Under the pieces are notes generated by a model. It had not been told where the DNA came from, ran no database searches, and was given only the letters and a program-made list of their open reading frames with translations. The translations under genes were made by a program, and so were the position numbers. This document shows positions 203 through 63,519 of a stretch of DNA of 64,000 bases, piece by piece. The stretch is from Candidatus Bathyarchaeia archaeon. GTDB lineage: Archaea; Thermoproteota; Bathyarchaeia; TCS64. The stretch lies in the NCBI GenBank assembly GCA_050014495.1, contig JBEKDF010000007.1, forward strand, positions 1-64,000, given 5' to 3'. The stretch's first letter is position 1; every line of letters starts with the position of its first letter.

Positions 203-271
203 ATGGTTCCTCGCTTTCAAGGGTCCCCATCCACTCAGGTAAGGAGTCTTCCTTGTAGTTGCGCACGCGCA

Positions 272-440
272 ACACAACACCTGTCACACACTCTAATGGT
301 ACCAATCATAAATCAGACTTAATGGGTGCAGACACGCTAAGAACCACCTCAATCGTTGAAACAATTATAGTTTTATAAGCAATAAAACCCAGAGAGTAAT
401 GGTACCATTGTCAGAGAAGAGGCACCGCCTATACAGTTCA
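272..440 (+). repeat. Diverged direct repeat, copy 1 (copy 2 at ~1527-1693)
   Basis: ACCTGTCACACACTCTAATGGTACCAATCAT is identical in both copies. The right ends (AATGGTACCATT..GAGA.GAGGCACCGC.TATAC) are similar and the middles have diverged. Confidence 0.85.
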
Positions 441-1661
441 GCGCGCGCGAGCGACAGGTTCAAGTTCCACTTCCCACACCATCAAGGACTAATATTCAGT
501 ACTTTCATCTAACATTCTCATCAGAATAATAACCAGCCTCTAGAAGTAGGTTACGACCGTCACACCGACCACCCGCGACCGAATACCACGAAAACGGTTA
601 TTGGCGTCTTGTAGGGTCTGAAGAAGGGGGAGGCCTGTTGAGGCTCGAGGTCATCATATGTGCCTAATAACAATGGTACCATTCAACAACGCCGGTAAGT
701 TTCTCACAAACCAGCCCGCTAAAGTATAATGGAACCAATTAACCAACATACAATTATGGTACCATAATGGTTCACATCCCAAATTAAAACAACCGTCAAC
801 AGCCGCCAAGCCTTTTTGCCACCATCAAATGGATTAATGGCACCATTAATGTCACGGGCTCCTCGAGCCGGAAGGCCACACTGCAACGTGCGAAAGTAGT
901 CGCACGCTGCAGAATGGGGAGTGAGTAGGTGATCTTGAGGGTGACGTTGACTACTTAGAGATACTGCGAAGAGCCGCGGTAGCGTTGCCCAATAAATTCA
1001 CTGGTGGCTCCATGGATGGTGACCATGGTGATCATGATGTTGATGACCGTGATGAGTCTGTTAATGATCATGATGTCGGTGATAACGTTATTGCAGAGGG
1101 CGTACCGTCACCACAGGCTAGTACTACGGCAGCAAACCACACTTCATCACGGACAGTCATGAGCAGACATAAGCAGACACGGACGGACAGTAACAGACAC
1201 AAACAATCAACACACATGGAAGAGACACGGGAAGAGACACAGAAAGACACGGAAGAGCCATCAGATGAGACACGGACAGACACGGACAAGCCACAGAAGA
1301 AGCAAAAAGAAAATACACTGCCACCACCACTTGTGACCACGATAGTTCCGAAGAAGAAGGTCAGCATCTCTGAGAGGATGAAGTCTGGGGAGGTTACGCT
1401 TGAGGAGAAGCCGAGTGTAATACAGAAACCTTCCCCTATGATCTCGCACAACATGGTAGTCTCAACGAGACGTAATGGTACCAATAAAAATGGAGATAAG
1501 CCATCTTGGTAAACTCTCCCTGAAGAACACAAAACCTGTCACACACTCTAATGGTACCAATCATGAACCGACACCCTGAAACAAACACACGAAGACCCAT
1601 CCTCCCCGTTGAGGCGATAAGAGTCATATGCGCGGCAAACCATGAGAAAAATGGTACCATT
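295..1661. repeat. Cluster of nine AATGGTACCATT-type palindromes
   Basis: Copies at 295, 398, 672, 728, 753 (16-bp perfect), 833 (18-bp near-perfect), 1474, 1550 and 1650. Confidence 0.9.
985..1512 (+). CDS. Hypothetical low-complexity/disordered protein
   Basis: 175-aa ORF, D/H-rich then E/T/K-rich. The DNA contains GATCATGATGT and GACACGGA microrepeats. Confidence 0.35.
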   Translation: MPNKFTGGSMDGDHGDHDVDDRDESVNDHDVGDNVIAEGVPSPQASTTAANHTSSRTVMSRHKQTRTDSNRHKQSTHMEETREETQKDTEEPSDETRTDTDKPQKKQKENTLPPPLVTTIVPKKKVSISERMKSGEVTLEEKPSVIQKPSPMISHNMVVSTRRNGTNKNGDKPSW

Positions 1662-1693
1662 ATCTGAGAGGAGGCACCGCTTATACCCGTCAG
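1527..1693 (+). repeat. Diverged direct repeat, copy 2
   Basis: Matches 272-440 at both ends. Confidence 0.85.
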
Positions 1694-1980
1694 AGATCCC
1701 GGAGGTGATCCTTGGATTAAGGCTGCGACCAATTCAGCTGCTCGAGGAAAAGAATGACTCAGGGAGGGCCAAAATTACATTCCGCTGCATGCACCGGCTC
1801 TTAAAGGAAAATCTCGGTTGACCAAATATATTAAGTTCAATTGGGTTTCTGGCATATGTTGAGGACGCTGGCGAAGAAGATCTTCCAAAGCGTATTCCTG
1901 AGTGATGAAACCTCTCCCGATTTTTCGAACGCCTTCTGGTAAGCACGCGCTTCGTATTTACTATCTTACTCTCATTACAC

Positions 1981-2130
1981 TTAGATGAGACTTACCAGTC
2001 GACCGTATCCGAGGTTGAGCTGGGTCACCCCGCTATAGGAGTTGATGTACCCATTCTCCACCCTAACCCTCGCACCGACCTTCACCACCTCGAACTGCTT
2101 ATTCCACAACACCATAACTATCCTTCCCTC
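1981..2130 (-). pseudogene. 5'-truncated OB-fold single-stranded DNA-binding protein (SSB/RPA-like)
   Basis: Manual translation: GRIVMVLWNKQFEVVKVGARVRVENGYINSYSGVTQLNLGYGRLVSLI*. There is an in-frame stop just upstream. Confidence 0.75.
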
Positions 2131-2136
2131 GAGGGA

Positions 2137-2403
2137 ATGACTTTAGAGCAACTCCGCGTAGATCTCAAGGAGATAACTGAGACCGGAAACCCAGTTAATC
2201 TAATTTTGGCCATTAGAGCACCTACTTTGATCGTGGTTGGAGGGAAAGATGACGTGACTCCACCAGACCTTTATAAGATTCTCTACGATAAGGCGCACGA
2301 ACCAAAGAAGTGGGCATTGATAGAAGGAGCAGATCATGGCTTCTCAGAGCAAAGGACACTCCTGATCAGGGCTGTAATCGACTGGCTCAAGGTAACACTA
2401 TAG
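2137..2403 (+). pseudogene. C-terminal fragment of an alpha/beta hydrolase
   Basis: PTLIVVGGKDDVTP and IEGADHGF (catalytic Asp and His) are present. The N-terminal GxSxG half is missing. Confidence 0.7.
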
Positions 2404-9615: not shown

Positions 9616-9711
9616 TTAGATTAGACTCATTGCCGCAGCATAAGCTCCAATTTGTGCATCTACGATGCTATCTCCAGATCCAATAATTACAATGTCGCCA
9701 TTCTCGGGTTG
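9616..9711 (-). pseudogene. C-terminal remnant resembling DUF4443
   Basis: QPENGDIVIIGSGDSIVDAQIGAYAAAMSLI*, beginning at the GCGCGCGC tract 9710-9720. Confidence 0.5.
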
Positions 9712-9905
9712 CGCGCGCGTTTTTCGGATCCGATGCAGGCCATCTACTTAACCTTCATTCCTCTCTACTATCCCTGGCCACCGATCATCCACACCGTCAC
9801 GAACACGATAATCTAAGCTGTTCTGGCCCCGCCGATTATTCAGGGTATAAGGAGGCTCCCGGAAACGTTGAATACTGGAGAGCTCAAGCAGAAACCGGTC
9901 CAGGC

Positions 9906-12175: not shown

Positions 12176-12212
12176 TGCACGCGCGCTGAATATGTGCATA
12201 CTATGTGATCTG

Positions 12213-13286: not shown

Positions 13287-13354
13287 GCGCGTACATCATC
13301 CTTGTTTAATCACTTTGTTTTCTTAAATTGCTTTGTAATTGCGAGTACGCGCAC

Positions 13355-13434: not shown

Positions 13435-13558
13435 ATACACGCGCGCACCCGAGGATAATGTATGAAATAAGAACCCGTAAATAATATTATCAATTGAATC
13501 AAAATGCCTAAAAATGCGCACGATCACGCGTGCGTTTGACTATAGTTTGAGTTTTGGG

Positions 13559-19145: not shown

Positions 19146-19146
19146 G

Positions 19147-28059: not shown

Positions 28060-28088
28060 CGTGCGCGCGCGCCTTGAATTCGCGTGTG

Positions 28089-30542: not shown

Positions 30543-30969
30543 TCGTCCACCACCTGATTGAGTAAATTCTACAAAGTATTTATTGTGTTTGAATCAACCT
30601 TTCCCTCTGACACGTAATCGTAAATGAGATGCGATTAATTCCTCTCTAAGTGAAATGCAGCCATTTTTCGGATCGCTATAAGATGTGAGCAGAAGTGATC
30701 TCCGTTAGTGTGGGAGGTCTGAACACTAATTTTAATTTTCGACCTCACGCGCGCGTAGTAAAAGTAGGTAGAGAGGTTTGAGTTTGGGGGCGCAGCATAC
30801 GCATGCATGCGCGCGCATTAATGTCGAATTAATTGAGACTAAACTAACTGAGTTGGAAAAAGAGGTTGATGAACTTAGGAGAATCATAGTGTTATCGCGA
30901 CTGAAATGTAATTCAATAAAATCTGAGAAAGAAAAATTATACGAAAATAAATAAAGGTTTGTAATATTT

Positions 30970-31068: not shown

Positions 31069-31114
31069 TGTACGCGCGCAAACCGATTTAAGGCCCAAGG
31101 CGCAAATTTATTGA

Positions 31115-32368: not shown

Positions 32369-32529
32369 ATTATACATCAAAGGGCGGGACCAATTTGAGA
32401 GCTGAACAGGTGACGGACCAAGCGTAAGGAAAAGACCAATGTTCGCTGATGCGTCAACGGAGTGTGTATGGTGATAAGACTATGGCGCGCGCACACAAAT
32501 TAATAATGGCAATTTTTGACTCGTTTGTG

Positions 32530-33828: not shown

Positions 33829-33912
33829 CTTTATCTAAAATACTCTACATCATAACCGCATAAGACTTTTTTTATTCGCGCGTGCTTTTGTTCAAGCCGT
33901 GCTACTAAACGG

Positions 33913-34587: not shown

Positions 34588-34673
34588 TTTGTGGTATCGA
34601 CTCTAGAGAGCGCGCATGTTTGCGTCAAATATCATGACTAAAGTCCTATTAAGAAGGAACGGAAAAATTGCCC

Positions 34674-36247: not shown

Positions 36248-36448
36248 TTTTTACACAAATATTAGGTAGACCAGGAGGTTTATAATAGGTTTCATGGACA
36301 TCGCGCGCATGTACTCAGTTCATATTCAAATCGTTTGTGTTTGTTCGTCTGTTTTTGTCGCGCGCGCATATTTTCATTATATAATAGCCTGAGAATAAAA
36401 AACATAGATAATTTCAAATATACTTAAAGTGGTTTTCAAGGATTCGAA

Positions 36449-43944: not shown

Positions 43945-44001
43945 CTACTCTCTTCAATGATATTCGTGGAATTATTAAAAATATGCATACATGTTACGCG
44001 C

Positions 44002-44097
44002 GCACACCTCGGGATCACTTGCGAATGCGTGTACTCCTTCATAGTCTTCAAGAGTAAACTCTCTGAGCGTGAGCCGGCTTGTTTGAATTTGCACCAT
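44002..44097 (-). pseudogene. RimJ/RimL GNAT N-terminal remnant
   Basis: MVQIQTSRLTLREFTLEDYEGVHAFASDPEVC, then cut at tract 43995-44007. Confidence 0.8.
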
Positions 44098-50123: not shown

Positions 50124-50441
50124 TATTGATTAGTTGTTGAAGGTGAGTATCTAATACTAGAGTTTAGAACAGGTCGAGTGTTGTGACTCACGCCTGTTGA
50201 ATTTGTATCTGAGATAATGATTGTTTGACTGAATCTTTTATTGAAAAGCAATATGGACTCAGGTGCGTGAATATATTTGTACGTTTCTTGTATCTGCCGG
50301 AGCGTTTCATACTAGGGGCCTAGGGGGAGTTGGAGGGGCTAACCCATTACCAATCAGGAATAATGTGAGAAACTGGATTCTAAGTGCGCGCGCGGCGTGC
50401 ACTCGGTTAAGACTTATAGGTCATCCCGCGACCCAGCAATT

Positions 50442-50735: not shown

Positions 50736-50754
50736 TGATGGATTCGTGCGCGCA

Positions 50755-50920: not shown

Positions 50921-50928
50921 GCGCGCGC

Positions 50929-51118: not shown

Positions 51119-51181
51119 AATCGAGCACACTTGATCATTAACATGGGATAATTGTGCGAGAGTCTCTAAATTATAGGTATA

Positions 51182-51673
51182 TCAGAGCTTTGATATTATC
51201 TTCGCAGCTTCAGCATCCACTTGGCTTTCTGAGAGAGGCTCTGCACCGTTTGCCAGAGATGAGCCCTTCAGGTAAACCACTTCTGTATTACTCCCCCCCT
51301 TGGCTTCGACCATCTTCGTGAGCTTCTCAGCCGCTTTCAGGTTCTCGTCACCGGCTCCAACTAGGCCCAGCAGGACACGTTTCCCATTTAGGTTCACTTT
51401 TTTTAGAAAACTATTCATCGCCGGGGTAGGGTTCCCAGCCCATATCGGACTCAGTAGTACTATCGCGTCGAAGCCATCAAGCGCGTAGTTAGGATTCTTT
51501 AGTTTGGAAGACCAGCTTAGCATGGCGGATAAAGCTAGAGACATCATGCCTTTGCCGGTTCTGCTGTTCGAATCGATGAGTTCTCTCTCAGTGGCGTTGG
51601 TGGCTTTTATTATGGCTTTGGCTATTCTCGCTGTGGTGCCTCGGTTACTGTAATAGATTACTAATGTTCTCAT
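51182..51673 (-). CDS. Flavodoxin
   Basis: YYSNRGTT and SPIWAG. Confidence 0.88.
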   Translation of the reverse strand: MRTLVIYYSNRGTTARIAKAIIKATNATERELIDSNSRTGKGMMSLALSAMLSWSSKLKNPNYALDGFDAIVLLSPIWAGNPTPAMNSFLKKVNLNGKRVLLGLVGAGDENLKAAEKLTKMVEAKGGSNTEVVYLKGSSLANGAEPLSESQVDAEAAKIISKL

Positions 51674-51861
51674 ATCTGTTTTATTTTTGTTGTATAGTTG
51701 AAAAGGGTTGGCTTTTCAATAGTCATAAAGTTGTTTTGAAATCATCGTAGCGCGCACCTGTTACTCAAAATCTTAACACAAAGTTGCTTTGGCGTAAGCC
51801 TCATCTTACTTGCAATAATCTTATCCTCAGCTTCATTCAATACTAACTAGGTCGATGAGTC

Positions 51862-52296
51862 TTGGTTGAGGGAAAGAGATACGAATACAGACTAGAGCAG
51901 AACAAAGACGTTGTTAAACGTTATTGGGACGGCAAATGGAACAAACGGCAACCCAGCACCCTAGACGAACTCCAGACGCCTGATTTGGTCTACCATAGCC
52001 CGACACTGAATATGAAGGGTATCGAGGAGTATAAGCGGGTATATGGCAGCTACCTGGCAGCCCTTCAGGATACAGAGGTAGCGATCGAGGATATTATCGC
52101 CGAGGACGATAAGGTCATGACTCGAACGAGGCTGAGTGGTGTCCATGGGGGTGAATTTGAGGGCATCCCTCCTTCTGGGAATAGGTTCTCATGCGTTTCT
52201 TACACCGTATTCCGCCTCACCCACGGTAAGATTGCCGAGGAATGGGAGTTGTTTGACAAGTATACGTTTATGTGGCAATTAGGTGTTATCAAATAG
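51862..52296 (+). CDS. SnoaL-like ester cyclase
   Basis: IAEDDKV, G.H.GEF.GIPPSG, GKIAEEW. Confidence 0.9.
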   Translation: MVEGKRYEYRLEQNKDVVKRYWDGKWNKRQPSTLDELQTPDLVYHSPTLNMKGIEEYKRVYGSYLAALQDTEVAIEDIIAEDDKVMTRTRLSGVHGGEFEGIPPSGNRFSCVSYTVFRLTHGKIAEEWELFDKYTFMWQLGVIK

Positions 52297-52383
52297 CCAG
52301 TTGGTGCTATTGGATATCAATTTGCGTCCCGCGCGTTGAGGGATAGGTGTGTACTCATGTGCGCGCGCTTCTGGATTGTGGTC

Positions 52384-53100
52384 TTATGGACTTTTTTCCT
52401 CTTTATGAGTAATCTTGCGCCTAGAGTCCTCACCTGGCTTGACTAATTCTTTGACAAGGTCATACAGTCTACTATAGATGTGGCAGTTCTTTGAGTGGAA
52501 GATTAGCTTGCCAGTTGTGTAATCGGTCCCGGCTCGGGTGTTTATCTCGTTGACGAGTGCCTCATTGAACAACTGAATCCCCGCAACATTAGCTGGGAGA
52601 CCCGCGTAAGCATCCCATGATCTGAAGTAGCAGGTAAGATGCATCTTATTGTCAATTATCTCCGTGTCCATCAACGTTAGACATGGTGGCTCGTGCTGCA
52701 TGCCAGCTAGAGTCTTGTTTATATCCTGTGGCAACCTGATGACCATCGTAAGCTGCCTGTCATTGGGCTCCTCAACGTATCTGCTGATGAGGAGTTCCAG
52801 TTGGTCAACTGGCTCCCTTAGCCTGCTGCCATAAGTGTATGTTTCCCCCTCCTCCTTGACGCCCGCCCAGAGATACTGCAGCGCATATGAGTTGATGTAC
52901 TTCATGTCGCATGGAGCTTTTTCAGCGACGAGTGGCCTACTCTCCGGGTTGGTGATTTCTATGCTTAGATTCAGCTTCTTGGTCTCGGTGATCTCCGAGC
53001 CATAGCCTACTTGGAATACGTCCCCGCTGCTCCAGATCTCATATAGTGTCCTATACCATGCGTCTGGTATGTCATAGGCTCTTATGTTGGCATATCTCAA
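52384..53100 (-). CDS. thyA: Thymidylate synthase (archaeal ThyA-like)
   Basis: YTYGSRL, PPCL, FRSWD, PAN, HIY. Confidence 0.88.
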   Translation of the reverse strand: MRYANIRAYDIPDAWYRTLYEIWSSGDVFQVGYGSEITETKKLNLSIEITNPESRPLVAEKAPCDMKYINSYALQYLWAGVKEEGETYTYGSRLREPVDQLELLISRYVEEPNDRQLTMVIRLPQDINKTLAGMQHEPPCLTLMDTEIIDNKMHLTCYFRSWDAYAGLPANVAGIQLFNEALVNEINTRAGTDYTTGKLIFHSKNCHIYSRLYDLVKELVKPGEDSRRKITHKEEKSP

Positions 53101-53317
53101 GTCTACTTCCCCGGGTGTTTCACTTGAGAATCATGAACTAGGGGGTATTACACATTTATGGTCCGCATTCGTGGGGCTAATTGAGGCCTGTCTGCGCTTA
53201 CGAAGTTTGCGCGCGTACACACAAATTTATCAAAAATGTTAATCATCGTATATTTTACCAGACCACAATCATTATTTTTGCGATAGTCATGTTCCTGAAA
53301 TAAAAATCCTTTTTTAA

Positions 53318-54150
53318 CTAGAAGCACAGGCGCGCCTCGATAATTATAGATTGAGGGATCCTCATGTGCTTTCTCAGAGCTGGATATTTTGAAAGACCTT
53401 CCTGACTCGGTTTGGGCTCAACCAGCTTCGAGACCACAAAGCCAGAATCCGATAACGCAGCAAAATAATCAGTTAAGGTCCTGTGGAAAGATGTCGTCTT
53501 AAAGGGTTTAACTAGTCTTCATGTTCCAGGACAGTTCACACCTGCCGGGGTTGGAAGTAGGCTGTTATCTCCAGATGCAGAGCGTTTTCACCCTGTGTAC
53601 CCTCGGTTCCCTCCGCGTACACCCAGTGAACCAGCGGTTCCCTGTCTAGGCACTCTCCTCCCTCAAAGCGGGGATGAGTGATGCAGAAGATGAAGTACCT
53701 CCCGCTTTTCAAGACCTTGGCGACTTCAGCGACGGCTTCGCGGTAATATTCGATGCCCATCAGAGCCATGAAGCAGGTGACTACATCGAACTTGTCGCCT
53801 GCAAATTTACCGAGATCCATCGCATCCGAGACGTGGTACTCGATTCCCAGCTTTTCTACCGTCTCCATCTGTTTCGCAAGCTCTATCATCTTCGGTGATA
53901 AGTCCACGCCAACTACTTTGGCACCCATTCTGGTGAGTATCCTAGCGTAGGATCCTTCGCCGCATGCTAGGTCTAGGACCCTTTTACCCTTCACATCGCC
54001 GACTACGGTAAAGAAGCCAGGTTTATTCATCTCCTCCCTAAAGTAATCTTTGCCTTCTCGGACGAAGTTCGCCCAAGATGCAGAGGCAGCGCTCCACTCC
54101 TCGGATATTTCGGAGCCGGTCATATTTATTCTGAGATTGGACGCCTTCAA
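53318..54150 (-). pseudogene. Class I SAM methyltransferase, frameshifted near the 3' end
   Basis: VLDLACGEG and FCITHP. The C-terminal FHRTLTDYF..L...GF....LVEP lies in another frame at 53318-53520. Confidence 0.8.
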
Positions 54151-54596
54151 CGATATTAATGACTTCCCACAACCCTAACTCCTGAAATGCGCGTAACTTC
54201 TCAAAACCTAGGCATCTCATGATAGGAGTCTGTCGAATGAACGTATACTCGACAGTCTTATCTTGAGCCCCAACCGCTCATCATTAACTTGCTTGCCTAA
54301 TTGTTTATCAATCACCTCAATAATAAATTGGACACTAGTGCCTAATCGGGTATTGCAGCGGTGTTCAACCACACTGGTTACAATTCACCACCGTCCAGTA
54401 TCTGCGTAAAAGCTGTGACCACTAGTAAGTTGAGGCTGAGTGTTTTTACACCCGTGTACACAAGATTATCGCACATGCACACTAACTACTCTTGTTCACT
54501 GTTGAGTCTCAGGTGGAAGTGAGGATAAGTTATGTCGGTGCGTGCTCATGGGTTGGATAAAAGTTAAATCATCATCGGATTGAGGTATAATCGGTT

Positions 54597-55070
54597 GTGT
54601 TAATGTCATTCAAACTAAAAGATTTGCAGGACATAGCTGAATCCAAGGGGAGGGAATATTATATGGAGAAAAAGTATGACTGTCTACCATCAACTCTTTT
54701 GGCGATCAACGATGCATTGAAGGATGTAGATAATGTAAACTACGCTGAGCCAGTCGTGCTTAAGGCAGCGAGTCCACTCCGTGCAGGGTTTGGGGTATGG
54801 GAGGGCCCTTGCGGCGTGGTGACCGCGGGCGCCATAGCCATCGGGCTTAAGTTTAGTACCTCGGATGTAAACGATCATGCCAATATTAATAATGCCTCGA
54901 AAAAGTCAGCTGAGTGGCTGAGGTGGTTCAAATACGAAAAGTTTGGGTCATATAATTGCTTCGACATAAGACCGACGCCACCGGATAGGGAGAAGTGCGC
55001 AAATGTTGTCACTCAGTCAGCGAGAAAGCTTGTCGATATTTTGACTGAAGGAAACACGAAGGTCACATGA
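54597..55070 (+). CDS. C-GCAxxG-C-C family redox-active protein
   Basis: YDC..S, G.G....PCGVVTAG, FGS.NC, C...V. Confidence 0.85.
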   Translation: MLMSFKLKDLQDIAESKGREYYMEKKYDCLPSTLLAINDALKDVDNVNYAEPVVLKAASPLRAGFGVWEGPCGVVTAGAIAIGLKFSTSDVNDHANINNASKKSAEWLRWFKYEKFGSYNCFDIRPTPPDREKCANVVTQSARKLVDILTEGNTKVT

Positions 55071-55175
55071 TAAGTCACATGTAGATGCGACGGTTGAGTA
55101 TCAGCCCTCTTACACAAGGTTCTGGAGAGTGTATCAACACTCATATTCCTGATATCATAAGCTGAGTTACTATAA

Positions 55176-55954
55176 GTGGAGACTATAAAACAAACGCAAC
55201 TGCGTTAATCGCGTGCGTCATCACCATCATAGGATTCCTCCTGCTCTCTTCATCAATTAATATAAAGAACACCGAGACGCCAACTAGCGCATTAACTTCC
55301 TCCCTAACATTACTCGGAGCCGGGGCGCACTGGGCCGCAAACGGTGGCAACCATGCACTATAGGTGAACTGGATCGACTACTCCATAGCCCATCCCGGAT
55401 ACCCAGCTGAATTTAATCCGCCACCAAACGCGACTAAAATAGTCTCCTCTGTGATAAGCGCGTTGAATGATAACAACCTGATTGTGGACCGCTCATCGGA
55501 GATACCCAGCGACCTCTCTAAATACAGCGTCGTGGTCATCGACTGTTACTGGGCGGGTAACCCGTCTGATTCACAAATATTGAGCGATTATATCCTCAAG
55601 GGTGGAGGTGTTGTGTTGATCAGTGGAACACCGCCATACTTTGTTATACATAATAAGACGTTACACCCTCTGCAGAACGACTTATCTACGATAGAGGACT
55701 GGCTGGGTGCATCCTCTTACTACAACGTTGAGGGGCGAGTGCTGATTTCAGTCAACAACCCACTTTGCACTTCTCTTCACTTCAACCAGACGGTCTTCAT
55801 GGGGCCGTGGTCTCAGTCCGCATTATTTGATTTACAGCCAGGTGCGATACCTGTGGCGGTCTGGACGGAGGGAGGAGTATTTGCCTATACCTATGAACAT
55901 GGGAGTGGGCGAGTGTACTACCAAGCATCCCACGACTTTGAATTAAATCCTTAA
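55176..55954 (+). pseudogene. Secreted protein (class I GATase-like fold), interrupted
   Basis: The signal-peptide segment is in frame with ORF 55364 but separated from it by TAG at 55361-55363, and there is a further frameshift near the start. YI..GGGVV and G.GRVYY. Confidence 0.55.
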
Positions 55955-55977
55955 CTCAGACTATAGGAGGGCCCGCC

Positions 55978-56568
55978 CTAAATTATCAAGTGGTGGAGGT
56001 AGAAGCCCATCTGCAGCCAAGTCATGATGCAGCTGAGTACAGCTCCCACAACGACCTGCATGATGGTGTGAGCCTTTAGTTCGACCCTCGCCCATGCGAC
56101 CGGTATGATGACTAAAAGGAGGGGTAGCATAACCACACCAAGTTGGTAGACGAGAGCTGTGAATGGTCCTGCTACTCCGCTAGCGTGTATACTGATCTTC
56201 CACTTGAGGGTGATGACCATCAACACCAGGCCGTTCACGAAGTAACACGCCATGAGGGCTGTAACGACCTGTGGGGCGGAGACTAGGATCAGGCTGATGG
56301 TTCCAAGGAGGTAGAATAATGTGGTCCAGATGAAGGGGATGAAGCGTGTGTCCCTGTCGTGGGCGTAGAAGTCTTGGATTATATCGAGTTTGAGGAGGCC
56401 ATAGACCATTGCTAGAGGAAGTATGCATCCGAAGACGCTTGTGATGAGGATTAGGAGCGGGGCTTGGCTGAGGCCGTTTAGAAGGATAAGGGGTATGAAT
56501 GTTATGAGGGTAATTAGGGGTGCGTTTAGGGCGGCTGAGAGACGTGTAGCGAGCTTATTTTTATCCAA
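55978..56568 (-). CDS. PAP2-like membrane protein
   Basis: WKISIH and WARVELKAHT..QV..G. Confidence 0.82.
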   Translation of the reverse strand: MDKNKLATRLSAALNAPLITLITFIPLILLNGLSQAPLLILITSVFGCILPLAMVYGLLKLDIIQDFYAHDRDTRFIPFIWTTLFYLLGTISLILVSAPQVVTALMACYFVNGLVLMVITLKWKISIHASGVAGPFTALVYQLGVVMLPLLLVIIPVAWARVELKAHTIMQVVVGAVLSCIMTWLQMGFYLHHLII

Positions 56569-56610
56569 GTAATTAGCCCTCAGCCGGTGCTTTGTTTATT
56601 CCCGACGTCT

Positions 56611-56748
56611 CTACTTCTTAACGTTTTTCTTTTGCAGCGTCTCGCAGCAGCAGACTAGGGTCTTTTCTCCGCCTTTTCCGACCATTAGGTCGCAGTCTTC
56701 TCCCTTCGGAAGTCCACACATCGGGCATTTTATGGCTTTCTCATTCAT
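56611..56748 (-). CDS. Small CPxCG Cys-rich protein (45 aa)
   Basis: MNEKAIKCPMCGLPKGEDCDLMVGKGGEKTLVCCCETLQKKNVKK. Its start overlaps the iscU stop (ATGA). Confidence 0.7.
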   Translation of the reverse strand: MNEKAIKCPMCGLPKGEDCDLMVGKGGEKTLVCCCETLQKKNVKK

Positions 56749-57125
56749 TTCTTCTTCATCTCCTGCTTCTTCTTGTAGTCCTTTATTGCCTCATGTAGGG
56801 CGTCTGAGGCGAGGTTACTGCAGTGCATCTTCACCGGTGGTAGGCCGTCTAAGGCGTCGGCGACACTCTGGCGTGTGATCTTATCGGCCTCGTCTACGGT
56901 TTTGCCCATGGCGAGCTCGGTCGTCATGCTGCTTGTGGCTATGGCAGCGCCGCAGCCGTAGGTCTTGAATTTGATGTCTGCTATCTTCCCGTCTTTGACC
57001 TTGATGTACATGGTCATCATGTCTCCGCAGACGGGGTTGCCGACGGTGCCTACGCCGTCGGCGTCGTTTATCTCCCCGACGTTGTGGGGGTTCCTGAAGT
57101 GTTCCATGACCTTGTCGCTGTACAT
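56745..57125 (-). CDS. iscU: Fe-S scaffold NifU/IscU
   Basis: YS.KV.EHF.NP.NVG, NPVCGD, GCGAAIA, LPPVKMHCS. Confidence 0.96.
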   Translation of the reverse strand: MYSDKVMEHFRNPHNVGEINDADGVGTVGNPVCGDMMTMYIKVKDGKIADIKFKTYGCGAAIATSSMTTELAMGKTVDEADKITRQSVADALDGLPPVKMHCSNLASDALHEAIKDYKKKQEMKKK

Positions 57126-57126
57126 T

Positions 57127-58293
57127 CTACTTTAGCTCCTGTGGGGTTATGCTCGACATTGCTCGTAGTCGCTTCACGATCCCCGGTAGGACTTGTATGA
57201 CATAGTCTATTTCGTCCTTATTATTGGCTTTCCCGAGGCTGAATACGAGGCTGCCGTGGGCGTCCTCTGGTTTGAGGCCAGTTGCAAGTAGGCAGGCGCT
57301 TGGTTCTAGGGTCTTGGCGGCGCATGCGGAACCCGTATTGCATTGGACGCCGACGTCGTCTAGGCTTAGGGTTAGTGCCTCGCCTTCGATGTAGCTGAAG
57401 CGGACGTTGGCGTTGTTGGGTGTACGGTTTGTTGGGTGGCCATTGAGGTGGGCCTCGGGGACGGTTGTTGTTAGGCCCATGATGAGGTGGTCGCGGAGCT
57501 CGGTTAGGCGCTTCGCCTCCTCGGGGAGTTCTTGTTTTGCGAGTTCCGCGGCTTTCCCGAAGCCGACTATGCCGGGAGTGTTCTCTGTGCCGCTGCGCAT
57601 TCCCTGCTCCTGGCCTCCGCCGATGATAACGGGGCGTGGGCGTATGGTCTTCTTGACGTAGAGGGCCCCGACGCCTTTGGGGCCGTTTATGTCGTTGCTG
57701 CTCAGGGTCATGAGGTCCACGTCTAGTTGTTTGACGTCTAGTGGGATCTTGCCTAGAGCGGCGGTGGCATCGGTGTGGAAATAGGCACCTCTGGCGTGGG
57801 CGATTGCCGCTGCCTCCTTTATTGGTTCGATGGTGCCTATTTCGCCGTTTGCGGCCATAACTGATACTATGACGGTTTTGTCGGTTGTGAGTTCGTTGAG
57901 TTTCTCGAGGGAGATGACGCCGTATTTGTCGACTGGGGCCTGCTCGTACTCCCAGCCTACCCTTGTGAGGTCCTTGCAGATGTTTACGGTGCTTATGTGT
58001 TCGACGGCGCTTGAGACGATTCTGTTGCCCTTGTTCTTGTAGCGGTTCGCGGTGCCTATTATTGCGAGGTTTGTGGCCTCGGTTGCGCTGGCGGTGAAGG
58101 TTATCTCGATTGGGTCAGCGTTTATGAGGGCGGCTACCTGTTCGCGTGCCTTGTTGATCGCCCTGAGGGCCTTAAAGCCCTCGCTGTGGAAGCTGCTGGG
58201 GTTCCCTACGTGTTCTGCGAAGTATGGTAGCATCTCTTGCAGGACTCTTGGGTCTACGGGTGCTCCCGAGCCGTTGTCGAGGTAGGCCTTCAT
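57127..58293 (-). CDS. iscS: Cysteine desulfurase
   Basis: YLDN, GNPSS, SAVEH, HTDA, GPKG, RSGTEN, TGSAC. The PLP-lysine motif reads SSND. Confidence 0.88.
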   Translation of the reverse strand: MKAYLDNGSGAPVDPRVLQEMLPYFAEHVGNPSSFHSEGFKALRAINKAREQVAALINADPIEITFTASATEATNLAIIGTANRYKNKGNRIVSSAVEHISTVNICKDLTRVGWEYEQAPVDKYGVISLEKLNELTTDKTVIVSVMAANGEIGTIEPIKEAAAIAHARGAYFHTDATAALGKIPLDVKQLDVDLMTLSSNDINGPKGVGALYVKKTIRPRPVIIGGGQEQGMRSGTENTPGIVGFGKAAELAKQELPEEAKRLTELRDHLIMGLTTTVPEAHLNGHPTNRTPNNANVRFSYIEGEALTLSLDDVGVQCNTGSACAAKTLEPSACLLATGLKPEDAHGSLVFSLGKANNKDEIDYVIQVLPGIVKRLRAMSSITPQELK

Positions 58294-58377
58294 GTGTTTC
58301 GCCTTTTGTTTGATTGGGGATTGGTGGATTAAAAGGGTTCAGAATTGGCGTATGCAATCCGTCTCGTCGCGCATGCG

Positions 58378-58484
58378 ACTTCCTAGCTCGTGTAGGGTAA
58401 GGCGTGGTGAAGCTGATGCCTTTCCCCTTCTCGGTCTTAAAGGTGATCTCGCCCCCGTGGGCGTCTACGATCCCTTTGCAGAGG
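58378..58484 (-). pseudogene. Histidine kinase HATPase_c C-terminal remnant
   Basis: CKGIVDAHGGEITFKTEKGKGISFT, between RY tracts 58368-58377 and 58485-58493. Confidence 0.8.
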
Positions 58485-58752
58485 ATGCGCGTAGATTCAC
58501 TTACATATCCTACGTTTTCGGAACACTTTCCACTCAACCATACACGATCAGTAGTTCACGTGTCTGGTATTGAACTGCTTTCCAAGACTGCACGCGCGCG
58601 ATGTTGAGGCAGTTATCAGAAGGAATGCCAGACTCAGGCTGAGGAGACCGTTCCCCATTGTTAACTAATTTGTATACCGCTTTTTCAGATTTGTGTTTAG
58701 GTAAATGAAAGTTGTCGAGATTGAGGATAAGTGCCACAATAGATGTAATAGC

Positions 58753-59814
58753 TTAGGTAGCTTGGGGACTCCACTCGGGAACCCTCCAGGGAAGATCCTT
58801 CCCCTGCAGGTAGGCTTTGATCGGCTCCTTGTACGCGAAGAGGGCAACGGAGCCCCCTGTGTGGAGGAAGAGAACGTTCTCGCTATCATCGAACTTCCTT
58901 CGCTTCACCAAGTCGATCATGGTCGCCGCCGCAGGAGCAGTGTAGACGGGATCGATGAAGATGCCCTCTGTCTCCGCGAATGTCTTAACGGCGTCGATCT
59001 TTTCCTTCGAGATGAAGCCATAGCCGCCTCCCCCGAAGTCGTTATAGACCTTCAGGTCCTCGTCGGTGATGTTCGCCTCGAGGCTCAGAACACTCCTGGC
59101 CTCCTCTATGATTAGTTTCGCCTTCGCCATATGCTCCTCTGCGGGGCTGGAGTCGTCAGCAACGCTGATGATCTTTATTCCACTATTCAGGGCCTTCGCG
59201 CCTAACACTAAACCCGCCTGGGTGCCACCGGAACCGGTGCAGTGGACCAGGTAGTCGAAGTGGACTCCCATCTGCTGGGACTGGTTCATGATCTCAAGCA
59301 CAGCGTTGATGTAACCCACGGCACCGAGGATCACCGAGCCCCCGACGGGCATGTAGTAGGGCTTGTGACCCTCCCTCCTGAGACGCTCTAACTGCTCGTC
59401 GACGACTGCCCTCAAGTTCTCCGGACGGGCCACATAGATCTCAGCCCCCAGTAGTTTGTGGAGGAGGTGATTGCCATCCCACTCGGGAGGCTCCCAGCCA
59501 TCTCTGGGGCCATTCTTGACGAGGACTATTCCTACTCCGAGCTTCTTACAGGCGGCTGCAGTCTGGGTACACCAGTTGCTTTGGAATCCCGCGTTGGTCA
59601 CCACATAGTCGCAGCCATTTGCCAGTACATCCCCCATCAGGTACTCGAGCTTCCTAGCCTTGTTCCCACCAAAGGCGAGGCCCGTTAAGTCATCTCTCTT
59701 CACCCAGATTTTAGGGCCCCCCAGCTTTTTAGTTAGATTCGGGAGTTCCTGTATGGGTGTCGGGAGGTTGGCGAGCCTCGCACGGTGTAGAGATTCGAGT
59801 TTCATATTAGTCAA
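58753..59814 (-). CDS. D-cysteine desulfhydrase / ACC deaminase family
   Basis: PTPI, KRDD, GGNKARKLEY, QSN, GSGGTQAG, DPVYT, FLHTGG. Confidence 0.92.
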   Translation of the reverse strand: MTNMKLESLHRARLANLPTPIQELPNLTKKLGGPKIWVKRDDLTGLAFGGNKARKLEYLMGDVLANGCDYVVTNAGFQSNWCTQTAAACKKLGVGIVLVKNGPRDGWEPPEWDGNHLLHKLLGAEIYVARPENLRAVVDEQLERLRREGHKPYYMPVGGSVILGAVGYINAVLEIMNQSQQMGVHFDYLVHCTGSGGTQAGLVLGAKALNSGIKIISVADDSSPAEEHMAKAKLIIEEARSVLSLEANITDEDLKVYNDFGGGGYGFISKEKIDAVKTFAETEGIFIDPVYTAPAAATMIDLVKRRKFDDSENVLFLHTGGSVALFAYKEPIKAYLQGKDLPWRVPEWSPQAT

Positions 59815-59891
59815 GAAGAGTCTATTCTAAGGATGTATAACACCTTTCGCGCATAAGATGAAGTCGAAGTGCGTGTGAGTCACGATCGCGT

Positions 59892-60686
59892 TTAAGCAGC
59901 TATGTGCATCTTCTCGTCGCGGTTGATCTCAAGTAGCTTTTGAGCATTCCCCTGATTAACCGAGATCTCGAGGTACCCCCCACCGGCAACGAGGGCTAAA
60001 AGCTCCCCAACCTGGACCGCGGAGAAGCTTCTGACATATGGCACTCTGAACATCTTAGTCCCAATAGTTAGGGTAATCTTCGAACCTGAAGTGATCCTGA
60101 GTTCACCGAGTTCATCATATGTGACATTAGTGACGAGGTTTCCGAAGCCGTCGACGTGGATGATCGAGGCCTCTAAGCCTCCATCCACATGTATCGGAGG
60201 TGAATAGGTAGGGATCCTCACATATTCATTCGTCTCAGGGCCGAAGCTTCTCGGCTGCTCCCCCCGAGATAAGAGTGCTGCGATGGGCCCGAAAGTGTCC
60301 CTACCATCGAAGACATCTGAGACCCTCTCAGGGAGAAGGCCCCTATCTGTGATCCTGTATACCTTCTTCACGCCGAGCCTCTCAGCTGCGGGCGCCAGAA
60401 GGCCATTATCGGGGCCCACCAAGTACCCCCTAGAGGTTTCGAATATGAGGCTCGACCGCTTACCCCCGACGCCGGGGTCCACTACAGCCACATGAATAGT
60501 GCCATCGGGGAAGTAGTTCACGCTACGGGCTAGATGGAAAGCTCCCTCGCGAACATCGTAGCTGTCAACAGAGTGACTAATGTCAACCAGCGTTACATCG
60601 GGGTTTATCCTTAGTATGGCTCCCTTCATTTCGGCCACATAGGAGTCTCTTAGGCCATAATCGGTGAGGAGTGTGATGACGCGCAT
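59892..60686 (-). CDS. SAM hydroxide adenosyltransferase (fluorinase/chlorinase, DUF62) family
   Basis: LLTDYG, VVDPGVG, GPDNG, F.GRD.F, D.FGN, LEISVN.G. Confidence 0.92.
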   Translation of the reverse strand: MRVITLLTDYGLRDSYVAEMKGAILRINPDVTLVDISHSVDSYDVREGAFHLARSVNYFPDGTIHVAVVDPGVGGKRSSLIFETSRGYLVGPDNGLLAPAAERLGVKKVYRITDRGLLPERVSDVFDGRDTFGPIAALLSRGEQPRSFGPETNEYVRIPTYSPPIHVDGGLEASIIHVDGFGNLVTNVTYDELGELRITSGSKITLTIGTKMFRVPYVRSFSAVQVGELLALVAGGGYLEISVNQGNAQKLLEINRDEKMHIAA

Positions 60687-60820
60687 GTCATTATCATCCG
60701 CTGAGGTCTCATAAATCTTGCATAGTTGAGTCGATGCCTTGGCGCATCGCACGTGCAAATTGTAACGAGAGATGAACCTTCTTATTCATATTCAGGCGGA
60801 GACGCACGCGCACGAACTTT

Positions 60821-61957
60821 CTACTTACTTAGAGGATAACTACCATACTTTCTTGCAGCATCAAACATAGCGAGAATATTCTCGGGTGGAACCTCTGGCT
60901 GAATATTATGTACGGCGCCTAGGATGTAACCTCCGGCTGGGGCTAGATCCTCTACCCTCCTCTTTACCTCGTCTCTAACGTCGTCTACTGTTCCAAAAGG
61001 CATCACCCTCTGAGTGTCGACACCTCCCAGGAATGATATTCTATCGCCAAAGTCATTTTTGAGTCTCTTTGTATCCATATCTGCCGCTGAGACTTGAACC
61101 GGAGTCAAAATGTCGACACCCATCTCTATGAGGTCGTTTATGAAGGGAACAACTGAGCCGCAGGAATGATAGCAGAGTTTTACATCTGCCTTGCTCTTGA
61201 TGAACTGATACAGCTTACGATGCCTAGGCTTAATCAAACTTCGATAGATTGAGGGTCTGATCGCTGGGCCCCTTTGCTCAGCCAAATCATCGCCTACGAA
61301 GACTATTTGGATGTATTGACCCACTGAGTCGAGAAATCTGTCGAAGAAGGCCATGTGAAACTCGAGGATCTTATCCATTAACTTTTCAGCGAATGTCGGA
61401 TTACGATAGAGGTCGAAGGTGAATTTTGGGTAGGACCTAAGGTACCATGATTGTTCGTAGATGGACCCTGCGAGTGACGTAGCCAGGGCGTAATCAGTTT
61501 CCTCATACAGCTTCTTCGCCTCCTTTTCTAGGCCTTCAAACCTCCCAGCGTCCGTAGGGTCTGGCCATTGGTAGTTTTCCAGGTCTTCGAGGTTTGCCTC
61601 TCGTAGAGGATGGTTGACCATATCGTACCAGTATCCTCCGGGCGGTCTCCTCGATCTGATTCCCCATTCGTCTCTGAATGAATCATCGGAGTATTCGATT
61701 GGTCTCGAGTTTTTCGGAGCCTTTGCGTAGATGAATCGAAAATCAACCCCAAGCTTCCTCAGCAAGTGCTCGTCGGGTTCAACGATTTGTTGAACTCGGT
61801 CAACTAATCGTGGGGATGTGTCGATGGTGCCTAGGTACCTGCAGAGTTTATCGTAGGCGAGCTTTGAGATCCCCGCGTGGTTTCCGCACATAATCACTGG
61901 GACTCTATCCGCCTCGCGGTGGTCGAGAACTTTTAAAACTCTCTCTCTTGAGTTCAT
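60821..61957 (-). CDS. Uroporphyrinogen decarboxylase family (MtaA/CmuA-like methyltransferase)
   Basis: MNSRERV, DEWG, GDD, HSCG, GGVDTQ, HNIQ. Confidence 0.88.
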   Translation of the reverse strand: MNSRERVLKVLDHREADRVPVIMCGNHAGISKLAYDKLCRYLGTIDTSPRLVDRVQQIVEPDEHLLRKLGVDFRFIYAKAPKNSRPIEYSDDSFRDEWGIRSRRPPGGYWYDMVNHPLREANLEDLENYQWPDPTDAGRFEGLEKEAKKLYEETDYALATSLAGSIYEQSWYLRSYPKFTFDLYRNPTFAEKLMDKILEFHMAFFDRFLDSVGQYIQIVFVGDDLAEQRGPAIRPSIYRSLIKPRHRKLYQFIKSKADVKLCYHSCGSVVPFINDLIEMGVDILTPVQVSAADMDTKRLKNDFGDRISFLGGVDTQRVMPFGTVDDVRDEVKRRVEDLAPAGGYILGAVHNIQPEVPPENILAMFDAARKYGSYPLSK

Positions 61958-62235
61958 AAGGCACCGCTCACACAGATTCTAGGTTGTTCAAAGTAGTGGT
62001 TCGTAACTATTTGAGATAAGATCCAGATCGCGCACGGGGTTAAGAATGCTAGGTATGAACTTGGTTTTCCAAGAATGTAATATACGCGACATGGTGAGTT
62101 CCGTATAGGTTCCATATACTTATCCAACCAAACCCAAAATTTTCACCGCTTACTAAACCAATTCCCACTCTAATACCCCCAATGCGCGCGCGCACGCGGA
62201 GTTCTTAATAACAATCTCATGTAAATACCTAAGAT

Positions 62236-62406
62236 ATGACCCCTCATCCAGCTACAATGTGTGATTTTAAGAAGAGAATGCTCGCAGAGAACCTTGATCT
62301 CTTTAAGTCCATCGTGTCTGAGCCGAAATACTATTGCATCAAGTGTGGCAGGGTTGCCAATAACGATAAGTGGCTCTGCAAGCCAGCTCTGTTGAAGAGT
62401 GAATAG
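62236..62406 (+). CDS. Small zinc-binding protein (56 aa)
   Basis: MTPHPATMCDFKK...IVSEPKYYCIKCGRVANNDKWLCKP (manual translation). Confidence 0.7.
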   Translation: MTPHPATMCDFKKRMLAENLDLFKSIVSEPKYYCIKCGRVANNDKWLCKPALLKSE

Positions 62407-62540
62407 CTCTGAGGCACAGAGCGCGATCCTTAGAATTGTTAAGAGCGCGTGGCTTAGTGAACCGCACTTCGATGAGGTTAGCGTTGATTGTCACGCGTAA
62501 TTTAAATAAAGACTGAGTGATAATATTTTTTTGACAATTT

Positions 62541-62792
62541 ATGGGTGATAAAATAAATATTATTTCGGATTATAAAGACGCTGAAATAGAATGTAAAAGA
62601 TGGTTTGAGGATAAATTCCCGAAAGCTGATTACATTATCTTTAACAGGGTTGGGATGGAAAATAATGTTTGGAACCTAGAAGGGGAAGTTTCGGTTCCTC
62701 ATGGATTCGGTAGCGAAAAAAAGGGATTTTATGTTAAAATAACCTCAGATGGAGATATAGTAAGTTATGAGATAATTACTGTGAAAAAATAA
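62541..62792 (+). CDS. Hypothetical protein in an AT-rich patch
   Basis: 83-aa ORF between CACGCGTA (62492) and CGCGTA (62810). Confidence 0.6.
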   Translation: MGDKINIISDYKDAEIECKRWFEDKFPKADYIIFNRVGMENNVWNLEGEVSVPHGFGSEKKGFYVKITSDGDIVSYEIITVKK

Positions 62793-62988
62793 TGTGCTCG
62801 TATTAAGCTCGCGTAACCCAAATTACTTAATCTGCCAGATATCTCGAAGTACTCGGCTATCCTCGGATTGTCCCGAGGATCCGAGGCGACAGGCTGATCC
62901 CATAGATACCCTATCTAAGTCGTATTTGGCAATCGAATATTGTCGCCGAGTCATATTATTTGGTGTGCGCGCGCATTTTTATTTTCTA

Positions 62989-63453
62989 TCATTTATGGCT
63001 GGTTATTATGAGATTGTTTACATTGAAACCTTTGGACTTTACAGATTCTATTAATTGGGAATATAGCTTGTCATCCATTTTCGGTGTTCTGCATAATATC
63101 CAAAGATACTTGCGGTTTGGCGTGCCTACAACGGAATAATCATAGTCCTTACCCAGATTGATAATCCAATAATCACCATAGAACGGCCAGAAGAAGGTTA
63201 CTTTAAGTTTCGCTCCAGAGTCCTTGTCAACCACTTTTGCCTTGCCCTTTGCCTGTTTCGCCTTGCCATCTTTTATGCATTCGTTGAGCACAGATATGCT
63301 GCCATCTTCAGATAAAGCATAAGTTGCCGTCGTATCATCGCAACCTTCTTGAAATCTGGCTGGAAGGTGTGCAATCTCATACCATTTGCCTAGATATTTT
63401 TTCAGATCTACGTGCGGCACGACTTCAAGCGTTTTGTATTCCCCTTTTGTCAA
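62989..63453 (-). CDS. Lipocalin (Blc family)
   Basis: KYLGKWYEIA, KLKVTFFWPF.GDYW, YLWIL.R. Confidence 0.93.
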   Translation of the reverse strand: MTKGEYKTLEVVPHVDLKKYLGKWYEIAHLPARFQEGCDDTTATYALSEDGSISVLNECIKDGKAKQAKGKAKVVDKDSGAKLKVTFFWPFYGDYWIINLGKDYDYSVVGTPNRKYLWILCRTPKMDDKLYSQLIESVKSKGFNVNNLIITSHK

Positions 63454-63519
63454 GATAAATCACGCAGCATCAAAGTAAGGCATCAATGTATGGCTTTCGG
63501 TGAACATGTGCGCTTGAGC

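What the first reader, a model, noticed from the sequence alone, without database searches (positions are those of the whole stretch)
260..63513. (GC)n alternating purine-pyrimidine scars mark gene-fragment junctions: candidate undescribed end-joining or DNA-capture system
Seen: by eye, about 27 tracts with a GCGCGC/CGCGCG core lie in spacers or remnant DNA. Examples are 441, 9710, 10853, 12176, 13435, 28060, 30746, 30795 (24 nt), 31069, 32485, 36302, 36359, 43995, 50384, 50745, 50921, 52356, 53208, 58589, 62182 and 62963. Only about 5 lie in the much larger intact coding fraction. Spacers within housekeeping operons (purF-rps26e, trx-fprA) lack them. About ten recognisable remnants start or stop at a tract. 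Established: (GC)n and other RY repeats are self-complementary and Z-DNA prone. Inference: a repair or acquisition pathway could either add alternating RY tails to DNA ends (universal self-annealing sticky ends) or use such tracts as break/microhomology sites. Either would splice short gene pieces and accessory genes into the chromosome. Remnants carry later stops and frameshifts, which argues for old biological events rather than assembly error.
Basis: partly seen in the sequence, partly recalled or inferred. Interest (0 to 1): 0.92.

Follow-up and report, generated by a model that had tools for sequence, protein, structure and literature searches.

The report
GC-repeat filler seals archaeal DNA breaks
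Short GCGCGC runs mark places where DNA was lost or reshuffled in this peat archaeon and many relatives, are mostly missing from the parent sequences, and are likely written by an undescribed break-repair route that needs neither transposons nor the known end-joining genes.

Summary
The window (a Bathyarchaeia genome) has 33 (GC)n runs of 6 bp or more; 28 lie outside genes (null 3.3). Genome-wide, 413 runs of 8 or more are intergenic and 32 are in strong genes. Homology to parent sequences stops at the runs (120 of 199 sides with a homologue), and eight deletions of 26-455 bp are sealed by runs of which 5-9 bases come from neither parent. Independent metagenome contigs cross the junctions, and another strain shows a new run at a new break. 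The pattern is abundant in 49 of 251 class genomes. An IS5/IS1182-like element always abuts such runs, but was not found in 26 of those 49, including a single-contig genome, so it is likely a lodger. Ku/LigD, PolX, reverse transcriptase and tyrosine recombinase do not track the runs. Best reading: host end joining that writes self-complementary GC filler; the replicative primase is the leading, untested candidate. Pre-existing Z-DNA break sites are not supported; capture of foreign DNA is only inferred. The scan noted this before on other DNA, with split verdicts (transposon scar versus filler); the tests here favour filler.

The parts
441..449 (.). 9-bp GC run at a mapped breakpoint: DNA to its left is a paralogue piece whose intact copies continue without a run
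   Evidence: 75% over 165 bp to C7:1692; copies also on C16, C3
276..440 (.). gene remnant ending at the 441 run (start approximate)
9711..9719 (.). 9-bp GC run; a protein remnant starts 2 nt after it
9721..9864 (+). remnant matching residues 148-195 of a 205-aa protein of G021
   Evidence: 56% identity
10855..10864 (.). 10-bp GC run, intergenic, no parent found
12180..12186 (.). 7-bp GC run between a DHDPS-family gene and a GNAT gene
13440..13446 (.). 7-bp GC run at a mapped breakpoint; remnant 13348-13482 overlaps it at protein level
   Evidence: 78% to C54
27776..28084 (-). rhodanese-type piece matching only residues 456-559 of a 561-aa protein; match begins 12 nt from the 28063 run
28063..28072 (.). 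10-bp GC run; run X14 diverges inside it (28067); run X12 joins 27202 to it through a new GC run plus 19 other bases
   Evidence: tables 5, 5c, 7
30748..30755 (.). 8-bp GC run, intergenic
30809..30816 (.). 8-bp GC run inside the 24-nt RY stretch from 30795; mapped breakpoint on its right side
   Evidence: 83% to C1:148640
31073..31079 (.). 7-bp GC run, mapped breakpoint on its left; 2 bases shorter in run X14
   Evidence: table 4
32485..32492 (.). 8-bp GC run between two convergent accessory genes; abuts one copy of an unrelated repeat core
33877..33882 (.). 6-bp CG run; homology blocks in four congeners (G011, G009, G016, G013) end at 33876-33877
34610..34615 (.). 6-bp GC run 22 nt upstream of a DUF3786 gene
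36302..36308 (.). 7-bp GC run; homology to G002 ends at 36301 and the parent has no run
36359..36367 (.). 9-bp GC run, 50 bp from the previous one
43997..44003 (.). 7-bp GC run, mapped breakpoint (84% to C53); run X14 diverges 4 nt after it
   Evidence: table 7
50386..50394 (.). 9-bp GC run in a gene-poor stretch
50921..50928 (.). 8-bp GC run; remnant 50939-51088 (residues 135-184 of a 191-aa protein) starts 11 nt after it
51750..51755 (.). 6-bp GC run at a mapped breakpoint (82% over 60 bp to C4)
52361..52368 (.). 8-bp GC run 15 nt past the stop of a thymidylate-synthase-family gene
53209..53215 (.). [quoted passage not shown]
58593..58600 (.). 8-bp CG run, intergenic
62184..62193 (.). 10-bp GC run, intergenic
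62967..62974 (.). 8-bp GC run 14 nt past the stop of a lipocalin gene

Best explanation
The GC runs sit at junctions where DNA was deleted or reshuffled and are mostly absent from both parents, so they are likely filler written by a host end-joining route that would give any two broken ends self-complementary GC tails to anneal. Shown: breakpoint position, non-templated origin of 5-9 bases at eight two-sided deletions, frequent use of one native G or C as the first base, a length peak at 8-10 in G000 and 8-9 in G021, accumulation in dispensable DNA, spread over eight families of the class. Inferred: 3' ends are extended with alternating G and C (or copied from a short free GC oligonucleotide), two tails pair through 2 or more bases, gaps are filled and ligated; old runs decay by transitions and by 2-base slips. 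Enzyme untested: the replicative primase PriSL is my leading candidate (about 40% given this route), because PriS is the one primase/polymerase-type gene I searched that was found in every run-rich genome tested, and the Saccharolobus enzyme does terminal transfer and anneals ends through two GC pairs. The IS5/IS1182-like element likely uses the runs as harmless landing sites.
For: Breakpoints: 120 of 199 run sides with a homologue are homology ends with no run in the parent; 40 are IS ends, 24 had no reliable register, 9 share the run on one side, 6 continue (most of the ~1,290 sides have no homologue in my data). Identity to parent is 0.88-0.94 at -20..-11, 0.58 at the first run base, 0.21-0.33 at the next seven (90 junctions; 0.58 vs 0.41 expected without phasing, p=0.001). 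Eight deletions of 26-455 bp with both flanks in one parent carry runs with 5-9 unexplained bases; cleanest is G021:646684, parents 98% alike, 175 bp lost, 7 of 9 bases new. Run X12 has a new GC run at window 27202, where the window has none. 39 of 164 remnant ends lie at runs. Same pattern in single-contig G021 of another genus and in 49 of 251 class genomes (15 loci from five of them inspected, runs mostly between genes or beside remnants). PriS found in 10 of 10 genomes searched. PMC12019639 and PMC3333859 (abstracts and passages read) report PriSL terminal transfer, annealing through 2-4 GC pairs, and C insertions at repaired breaks.
Against: No enzyme is identified. PriS is also in run-poor G024 and G001 and its alignment shows no feature that separates run-rich from run-poor genomes by eye. 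The Saccharolobus insertions are single bases, not repeats, and that enzyme is poor at adding several nucleotides. 119 of 164 remnant ends are far from a perfect run. Most parents are only 75-90% alike, so single junctions can be misread. The sharp fall after 10 bp in G000 (111 ten-mers, 12 longer) is not general: G103 has 86 eleven-mer matches. The IS clade is enriched in run-rich genomes (23 of 49 vs 36 of 202, p=5e-5) and may have been lost or unassembled elsewhere. Class counts are not corrected for GC content.
Confidence: 0.66

Rival explanations
1. The runs are target duplications and excision scars of an IS5/IS1182-like family and its MITEs, which cut, delete and move DNA from GC sites.
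For: All 89 pattern-matched ends (the pattern itself required GCGC) and the ends found without that requirement abut a GC run in one register; elements with different terminal repeats, down to about 37-45% transposase identity, do the same; IS presence is associated with run-rich genomes. Two earlier scan notes chose this reading.
Against: Not found in 26 of 49 run-rich genomes; no DDE_Tnp_1 match at all in single-contig G103 (144 W(GC)4W sites) and G138, or in G015 and G190. Duplication makes no new GC: eight deletions inside run-free parents carry 5-9 new bases, four of them inside IS remnants themselves. Flank pairs (10+8, 8+10, 6+6, 9+4) fit no single duplication length, and none of 13 full copies had both flanks contiguous in a run-free parent, though few flanks had any homologue. 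IS ends are all G-first while other junctions are 73 G-first to 47 C-first.
Confidence: 0.12
2. The filler is not made de novo but copied from existing runs elsewhere, or from a free GC oligonucleotide, by template switching during microhomology-mediated joining; the system snowballs without a GC-specific enzyme.
For: Would explain a length limit set by the donors, the one-base overlap with the parent, a few extra unexplained bases before some runs and the 19 foreign bases between two runs in X12.
Against: Flanks next to non-IS runs are nearly all unique (few families outside IS ends among 2,251 flanks; no enriched 6-mer after correction), so donor flanks are not carried along; the X12 filler has no match within 2 mismatches in the DNA held; it does not say why only GC seeds, nor why G-first/C-first ratios differ by lineage (144:7 in G103, 3:20 in G007).
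Confidence: 0.14
3. The runs are pre-existing Z-DNA or hairpin-prone sites, or protein-binding or recombination sites, at which DNA breaks or recombines.
For: (GC)n is the classic Z-DNA former (recalled); 9 sides share the run with a homologue whose other side differs and X14 diverges inside a run, so existing runs are sometimes reused as crossover points.
Against: Parents lack the run at 120 of 135 classifiable non-IS sides; no flanking consensus, no fixed distance or orientation to starts or stops; G021 has no tyrosine recombinase match; runs decay freely between homologues.
Confidence: 0.05
4. The junctions are assembly or amplification chimeras.
For: The genome is a 92-contig MAG with 7.5% contamination; only contigs, not raw reads, could be laid.
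Against: Contigs of run X5, not marked as a possible source, cross six window runs (28063, 30748, 30809, 31073, 33877, 34610) and 36302 with 0-1 differences; decayed copies of the same run occur in different species; the pattern recurs across the class.
Confidence: 0.01

Closest known systems
Primase-mediated microhomology end joining in Saccharolobus (PriSL; PMC12019639, PMC3333859; abstracts and passages read)
   Same: Archaeal, Ku-independent joining; terminal transfer before annealing; annealing through as few as two GC pairs; C insertions in G/C contexts at repaired breaks.
   Different: Reported insertions are mostly 1-2 bases, not 6-10-bp alternating runs; no genome-wide scar of this kind appeared in the passages I read; enzyme link untested here.
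Ku/LigD non-homologous end joining of bacteria and Methanocella (operon present in G000, C3:64206-67463)
   Same: Joins unrelated ends with deletions and non-templated additions by a primase-type polymerase.
   Different: Ku and LigD polymerase not found in run-rich, single-contig G021; additions are short and not a fixed repeat (recalled).
N-nucleotide and filler addition by TdT, Pol mu, Pol theta (recalled)
   Same: Non-templated or switch-templated bases at junctions create the pairing used to join ends.
   Different: Those fillers are variable; here it is one self-complementary repeat. PolX is not found in run-rich G161 and G190 and is present in run-free order-mates.
IS5/IS1182-family insertion sequences (DDE_Tnp_1 plus DUF772)
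   Same: A 1.1-1.7-kb element family with terminal inverted repeats sits in the runs in a fixed register.
   Different: Accounts for about 60 run sides in G000 of ~1,290; not found in over half of the run-rich genomes; cannot supply new GC bases by duplication.
DRT3 protein-templated alternating poly(GT/AC) synthesis (PMC13174585, PMC13314766; search listing and abstract starts only)
   Same: Precedent that a polymerase can write an alternating dinucleotide without a nucleic-acid template.
   Different: Antiphage reverse transcriptases with a free product; no RVT_1 match in 5 of 5 genomes searched here.

Membership tests
Ku/LigD NHEJ | Ku and LigD polymerase present wherever the scar is made | tested here: not met
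   present in G000 and G016; not found in run-rich single-contig G021; G103, G110, G161 gave only one PF01896 match, PriS
Ku/LigD NHEJ | junctions with deletion, little microhomology and non-templated bases | tested here: met
Primase-mediated MMEJ (PriSL) | PriS present in all genomes with the scar | tested here: met
   10 of 10 genomes searched; also in run-poor genomes, so not discriminating; PriL seen only as neighbour in G021/G000
Primase-mediated MMEJ (PriSL) | joins through 2-4 native GC pairs with 1-2-base insertions | tested here: not met
   native overlap is mostly 0-1 base per side and the insert is 5-9 bases
Primase-mediated MMEJ (PriSL) | purified enzyme tails and bridges ends | not testable with these tools
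   needs biochemistry
PolX/TdT-type filler | PolX co-occurs with the scar | tested here: not met
   not found in G161, G190 or G039; present in 6 of 6 genomes of family f4, whose four genomes have no W(GC)4W site
IS5/IS1182 target duplication or footprint | transposase with terminal inverted repeats flanked by the run | tested here: met
IS5/IS1182 target duplication or footprint | element present wherever runs are abundant | tested here: not met
   23 of 49 run-rich genomes; none in single-contig G103 and G138; MAG incompleteness is a caveat
IS5/IS1182 target duplication or footprint | run derivable from the parent target by duplication | tested here: not met
   eight deletions in run-free parents with 5-9 new bases
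IS5/IS1182 target duplication or footprint | one constant duplication length | tested here: inconclusive
   flank pairs need 4-8 bp; no empty site found
Integron or Xer-type cassette system | conserved, oriented recombination site and a tyrosine recombinase | tested here: not met
   no flank consensus, no orientation to genes, no Phage_integrase match in G021
Reverse-transcriptase-written DNA (DRT, retron, telomerase-like) | a reverse transcriptase gene | tested here: not met
   RVT_1 0 of 5 genomes; very divergent enzymes could be missed
Cas1/casposon or Z-DNA-binding systems | Cas1 or Z-alpha domain co-occurring with the scar | not tested
   no profile search run; only a crude motif scan

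The most novel reading that the evidence does not exclude
Bathyarchaeia have a dedicated, template-free GC-writing end-joining activity that gives every broken end the same universal sticky tail, so any two pieces of DNA can be spliced; it drives deletion, gene shuffling and capture of foreign genes across the class, leaves a countable scar at each event, and has created a niche that an IS family, and an IS110 on top of it, have colonised.
Probability: 0.35. Interest if true: 0.92.

Novelty: new variant of a known kind. Interest (0 to 1): 0.77.

Why it matters
How archaea without Ku join broken DNA is largely open. Here a whole class appears to sign its joins with one fixed, self-complementary repeat, several hundred times per genome. 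That gives a direct read-out of end joining in uncultured cells, a precise biochemical prediction (alternating G/C tailing) for a short list of enzymes, and a way to map deletion and gene-shuffling events in one of the most abundant sediment and peat lineages. A polymerase that writes universal sticky ends would also be of use as a reagent. I found no description in print in five searches of the held library; subscription papers are not covered.

Tried and rejected
Ku/LigD, PolX (53, 82), a second ATP-dependent ligase beside a FEN1 paralogue (54, 55, 66; found in 33 of 41 genomes, run-free ones included), extra primase-like genes C20:26047 and C53:7058 (no homologue in G021), reverse transcriptase (30), tyrosine recombinase (62) and NurA (not found in G116) were rejected as markers of the pattern. 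G001 and G010 are poor negatives: their sampled DNA is 32-36% GC. A motif scan and a by-eye pass over part of 252 of the 1,201 proteins shared by G000 and G021 gave no further polymerase candidate; a full subtraction against a run-free genome could not be done, so an accessory enzyme is not excluded. A universal cap at 10 bp, which would have fitted primase primer counting (recalled), was rejected by G103. Promoter or terminator roles: no fixed spacing or orientation. A link to the separate repeat-and-cassette system was rejected: it is missing from G021 and its array contigs hold no runs. One two-sided row (C3:76677, coding, parent gap 9) was dropped from the nine flagged deletions, and 29 of the 38 two-sided rows are same-register (coding chance or inherited runs). 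No RNA holder listed. A second laying of runs on 44001-64000 did not complete, so strain breakpoints there are unknown. ARAGORN found no tRNA; Rfam did. No supplements were read; those of PMC12019639 may list junction sequences that bear on the primase link.
Full report
Setting. The window is G000:C7:1-64000 of a 3.11-Mb, 92-contig genome. Its best holders are peat metagenomes, and relatives of its IS element lie almost only in records titled Bathyarchaeia, which places the lineage. No gene caller was on hand, so I wrote a hexamer-score caller (3,152 genes, 81% coding); coding/non-coding labels rest on it.

The observation. The window holds 33 alternating G/C runs of 6 bp or more. 28 lie outside called genes, which make up 22.6% of the window, and 5 inside; one of the 28 is in a tRNA. 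A first-order null gives 3.3 runs of 6 or more (max 9 in 300) and 0.2 of 8 or more, against 28 and 14. Genome-wide the maximal runs number 186, 192, 144 and 111 at 7, 8, 9 and 10 bp and only 12 above that. Of runs of 8 or more, 413 are intergenic, 32 in strong genes and 14 in weak calls; intergenic GCGCGCGC is 450 against 2.2 expected. There is no flanking consensus beyond a lean to T before G-first runs, no enriched 6-mer nearby once IS ends are removed, and no fixed distance or orientation to genes; spacers under 50 bp almost never hold one (7 of 1,090).

The runs are junctions. Homology blocks between the window and congeners end at runs (33877 in four genomes, 36302 in G002). Of about 1,290 run sides in G000, 199 had a homologue reaching the run: 120 are breakpoints whose parent has no run, 40 are IS ends, 24 had no reliable register, 9 share the run on one side and 6 continue. 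In a stricter set of 90 junctions, identity to the parent is about 0.9 far from the run, 0.71-0.88 over the last ten bases, 0.58 at the first run base and at chance level after it. So one native G or C is often the first base (p=0.001 against 0.41) and the rest is new; a minority carry a few more unexplained bases before the run. Of 38 runs with both flanks in one parent, 29 are in the same register (coding chance or inherited, often decayed, runs), one coding case was dropped, and eight are deletions of 26-455 bp sealed by runs with 5-9 bases from neither side; G021:646684 has parents 98% alike. At protein level 39 of 164 truncated ends lie within 15 nt of a run (null 6.0), while 119 lie over 60 nt away, so not every truncation bears a visible scar. 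69 neighbouring pairs of runs in G000 lie within 120 bp; in one IS remnant such close runs are successive deletions of one element.

Not an artefact. Contigs of run X5 cross seven window runs with 0-1 differences. Run X12 joins 27202 to the 28063 run through a new GC run and 19 other bases, skipping 860; the window has no run at 27203. Run X14 diverges inside the 28063 run and 4 nt after the 43997 run, and has the 31073 run two bases shorter. These are contigs, not raw reads, and cover 27000-46999 only.

Spread. Single-contig G021, another genus at 58% GC, shows the same intergenic excess peaking at 8-9 bp. Of 251 class genomes, 49 in eight families have 20 or more W(GC)4W plus W(CG)4W sites (not corrected for GC). 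Fifteen loci from five of them, 36-57% GC, show runs mostly between genes or beside remnants. Phase and length differ by lineage: G-first to C-first is 144:7 in G103 and 3:20 in G007, and G103 has many runs above 10 bp, so the fall after 10 is not general.

The IS. About 60 ends of an IS5/IS1182-like family (DDE_Tnp_1 plus DUF772) and its MITE-like derivatives abut runs in G000, always with G next to the element; diverged subfamilies do the same. This is the strongest rival, and IS presence is associated with run-rich genomes (23 of 49 vs 36 of 202). But the profile finds nothing in 26 of the 49, and single-contig G103 and G138 have no DDE_Tnp_1 match. Duplication cannot supply the new bases at deletions in run-free parents, flank pairs fit no single duplication length, and no copy was seen splitting a run-free parent (weak test). 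I read the IS as a lodger.

The enzyme. G000 has a Ku-LigD operon, but G021 has neither gene. PolX, a second ligase, extra primase-like genes, reverse transcriptase, tyrosine recombinase and NurA do not track the runs. PriS was found in all ten genomes searched but also in run-poor ones, with no evident distinguishing feature. PMC12019639 (abstract, outline and passages) reports that Saccharolobus PriSL repairs breaks by microhomology joining, with terminal transfer, annealing through 2-4 GC pairs and C insertions; PMC3333859 (passages) reports template jumping but weak multi-base tailing. That makes PriSL the best lead and no more. A full subtraction against a run-free genome was not possible, so an accessory enzyme stays open.

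Mechanism. Shown: position at breakpoints, non-templated origin, one-base phasing, decay by transitions and slips, class-wide spread, independence from the genes above. Inferred: G/C tailing of 3' ends or copying of a short GC oligonucleotide, annealing of self-complementary tails, fill-in and ligation. Capture of foreign genes is plausible, since gene blocks change neighbours at runs, but no donor was identified.

Comparison and verdict. It works like end joining with filler; it fails the membership tests for Ku/LigD, PolX filler, IS footprint and cassette recombination, and differs from reported primase-mediated joining in insert length and form. Five searches found no description. Earlier scan notes report the same pattern on other pieces of this genome and in other genomes, split between transposon scar and filler; they are not independent support, and my own tests favour filler. 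New variant of a known kind; interest 0.77.

Noticed in passing
G000 C74, C72, C75, C84-C86, C90-C92; one core copy at window 32472-32483 (- strand): A separate repeat with core ATAG[CT]CTTATCC and a conserved right arm (about 110-165 copies) lies ~25 nt upstream of the start of each gene in head-to-tail arrays of ~550-bp paralogous genes with an N-terminal membrane anchor; variant sites have GGGTTT or GT-repeat arms on either side. Array contigs hold no GC runs; G021 has one hit. Looks like a non-attC cassette system; recombinase not identified.
   Followed up: partly
G000:C17:57467-58774, C48:5783-7090; L026: An IS110-family element sits in three cases exactly between the GC run and the terminal repeat of the IS5-like element, consistent with a CT core: an element targeting another element's end.
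   Followed up: partly
G000:C79:7080-7543 and C34:18636-19053: Short elements with the IS5-like terminal repeats but no transposase, carrying other DNA.
   Followed up: partly
G000:C3:64206-67463: Ku, LigD ligase-phosphoesterase and stand-alone LigD polymerase genes together; the polymerase is found in 14 of 17 congeners, which is unusual for archaea (recalled).
   Followed up: partly
G000:C22:11691-14298; G021:1778318-1780934: A FEN1-family gene next to a second ATP-dependent DNA ligase; G000 has two FEN1 paralogues.
   Followed up: partly
G000:C20:26047-27366 and C53:7058-7864: Two extra PriS-like genes, one beside an integrase-like gene; no homologue in G021.
   Followed up: partly
window 14716-14826: tRNA (Rfam 14753-14824) missed by ARAGORN; the 5' part looks displaced upstream, possibly by an intron in an unusual position. 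Its 6-bp GC run is not a scar.
   Followed up: no
window 985-2403: Gene-poor stretch with a low-complexity frame and two remnants of one gene family starting at 2127-2128 in opposite directions, with no GC run nearby.
   Followed up: no
G000:C7:64936-64953, just past the window: The longest run of the genome, 18 bp.
   Followed up: no
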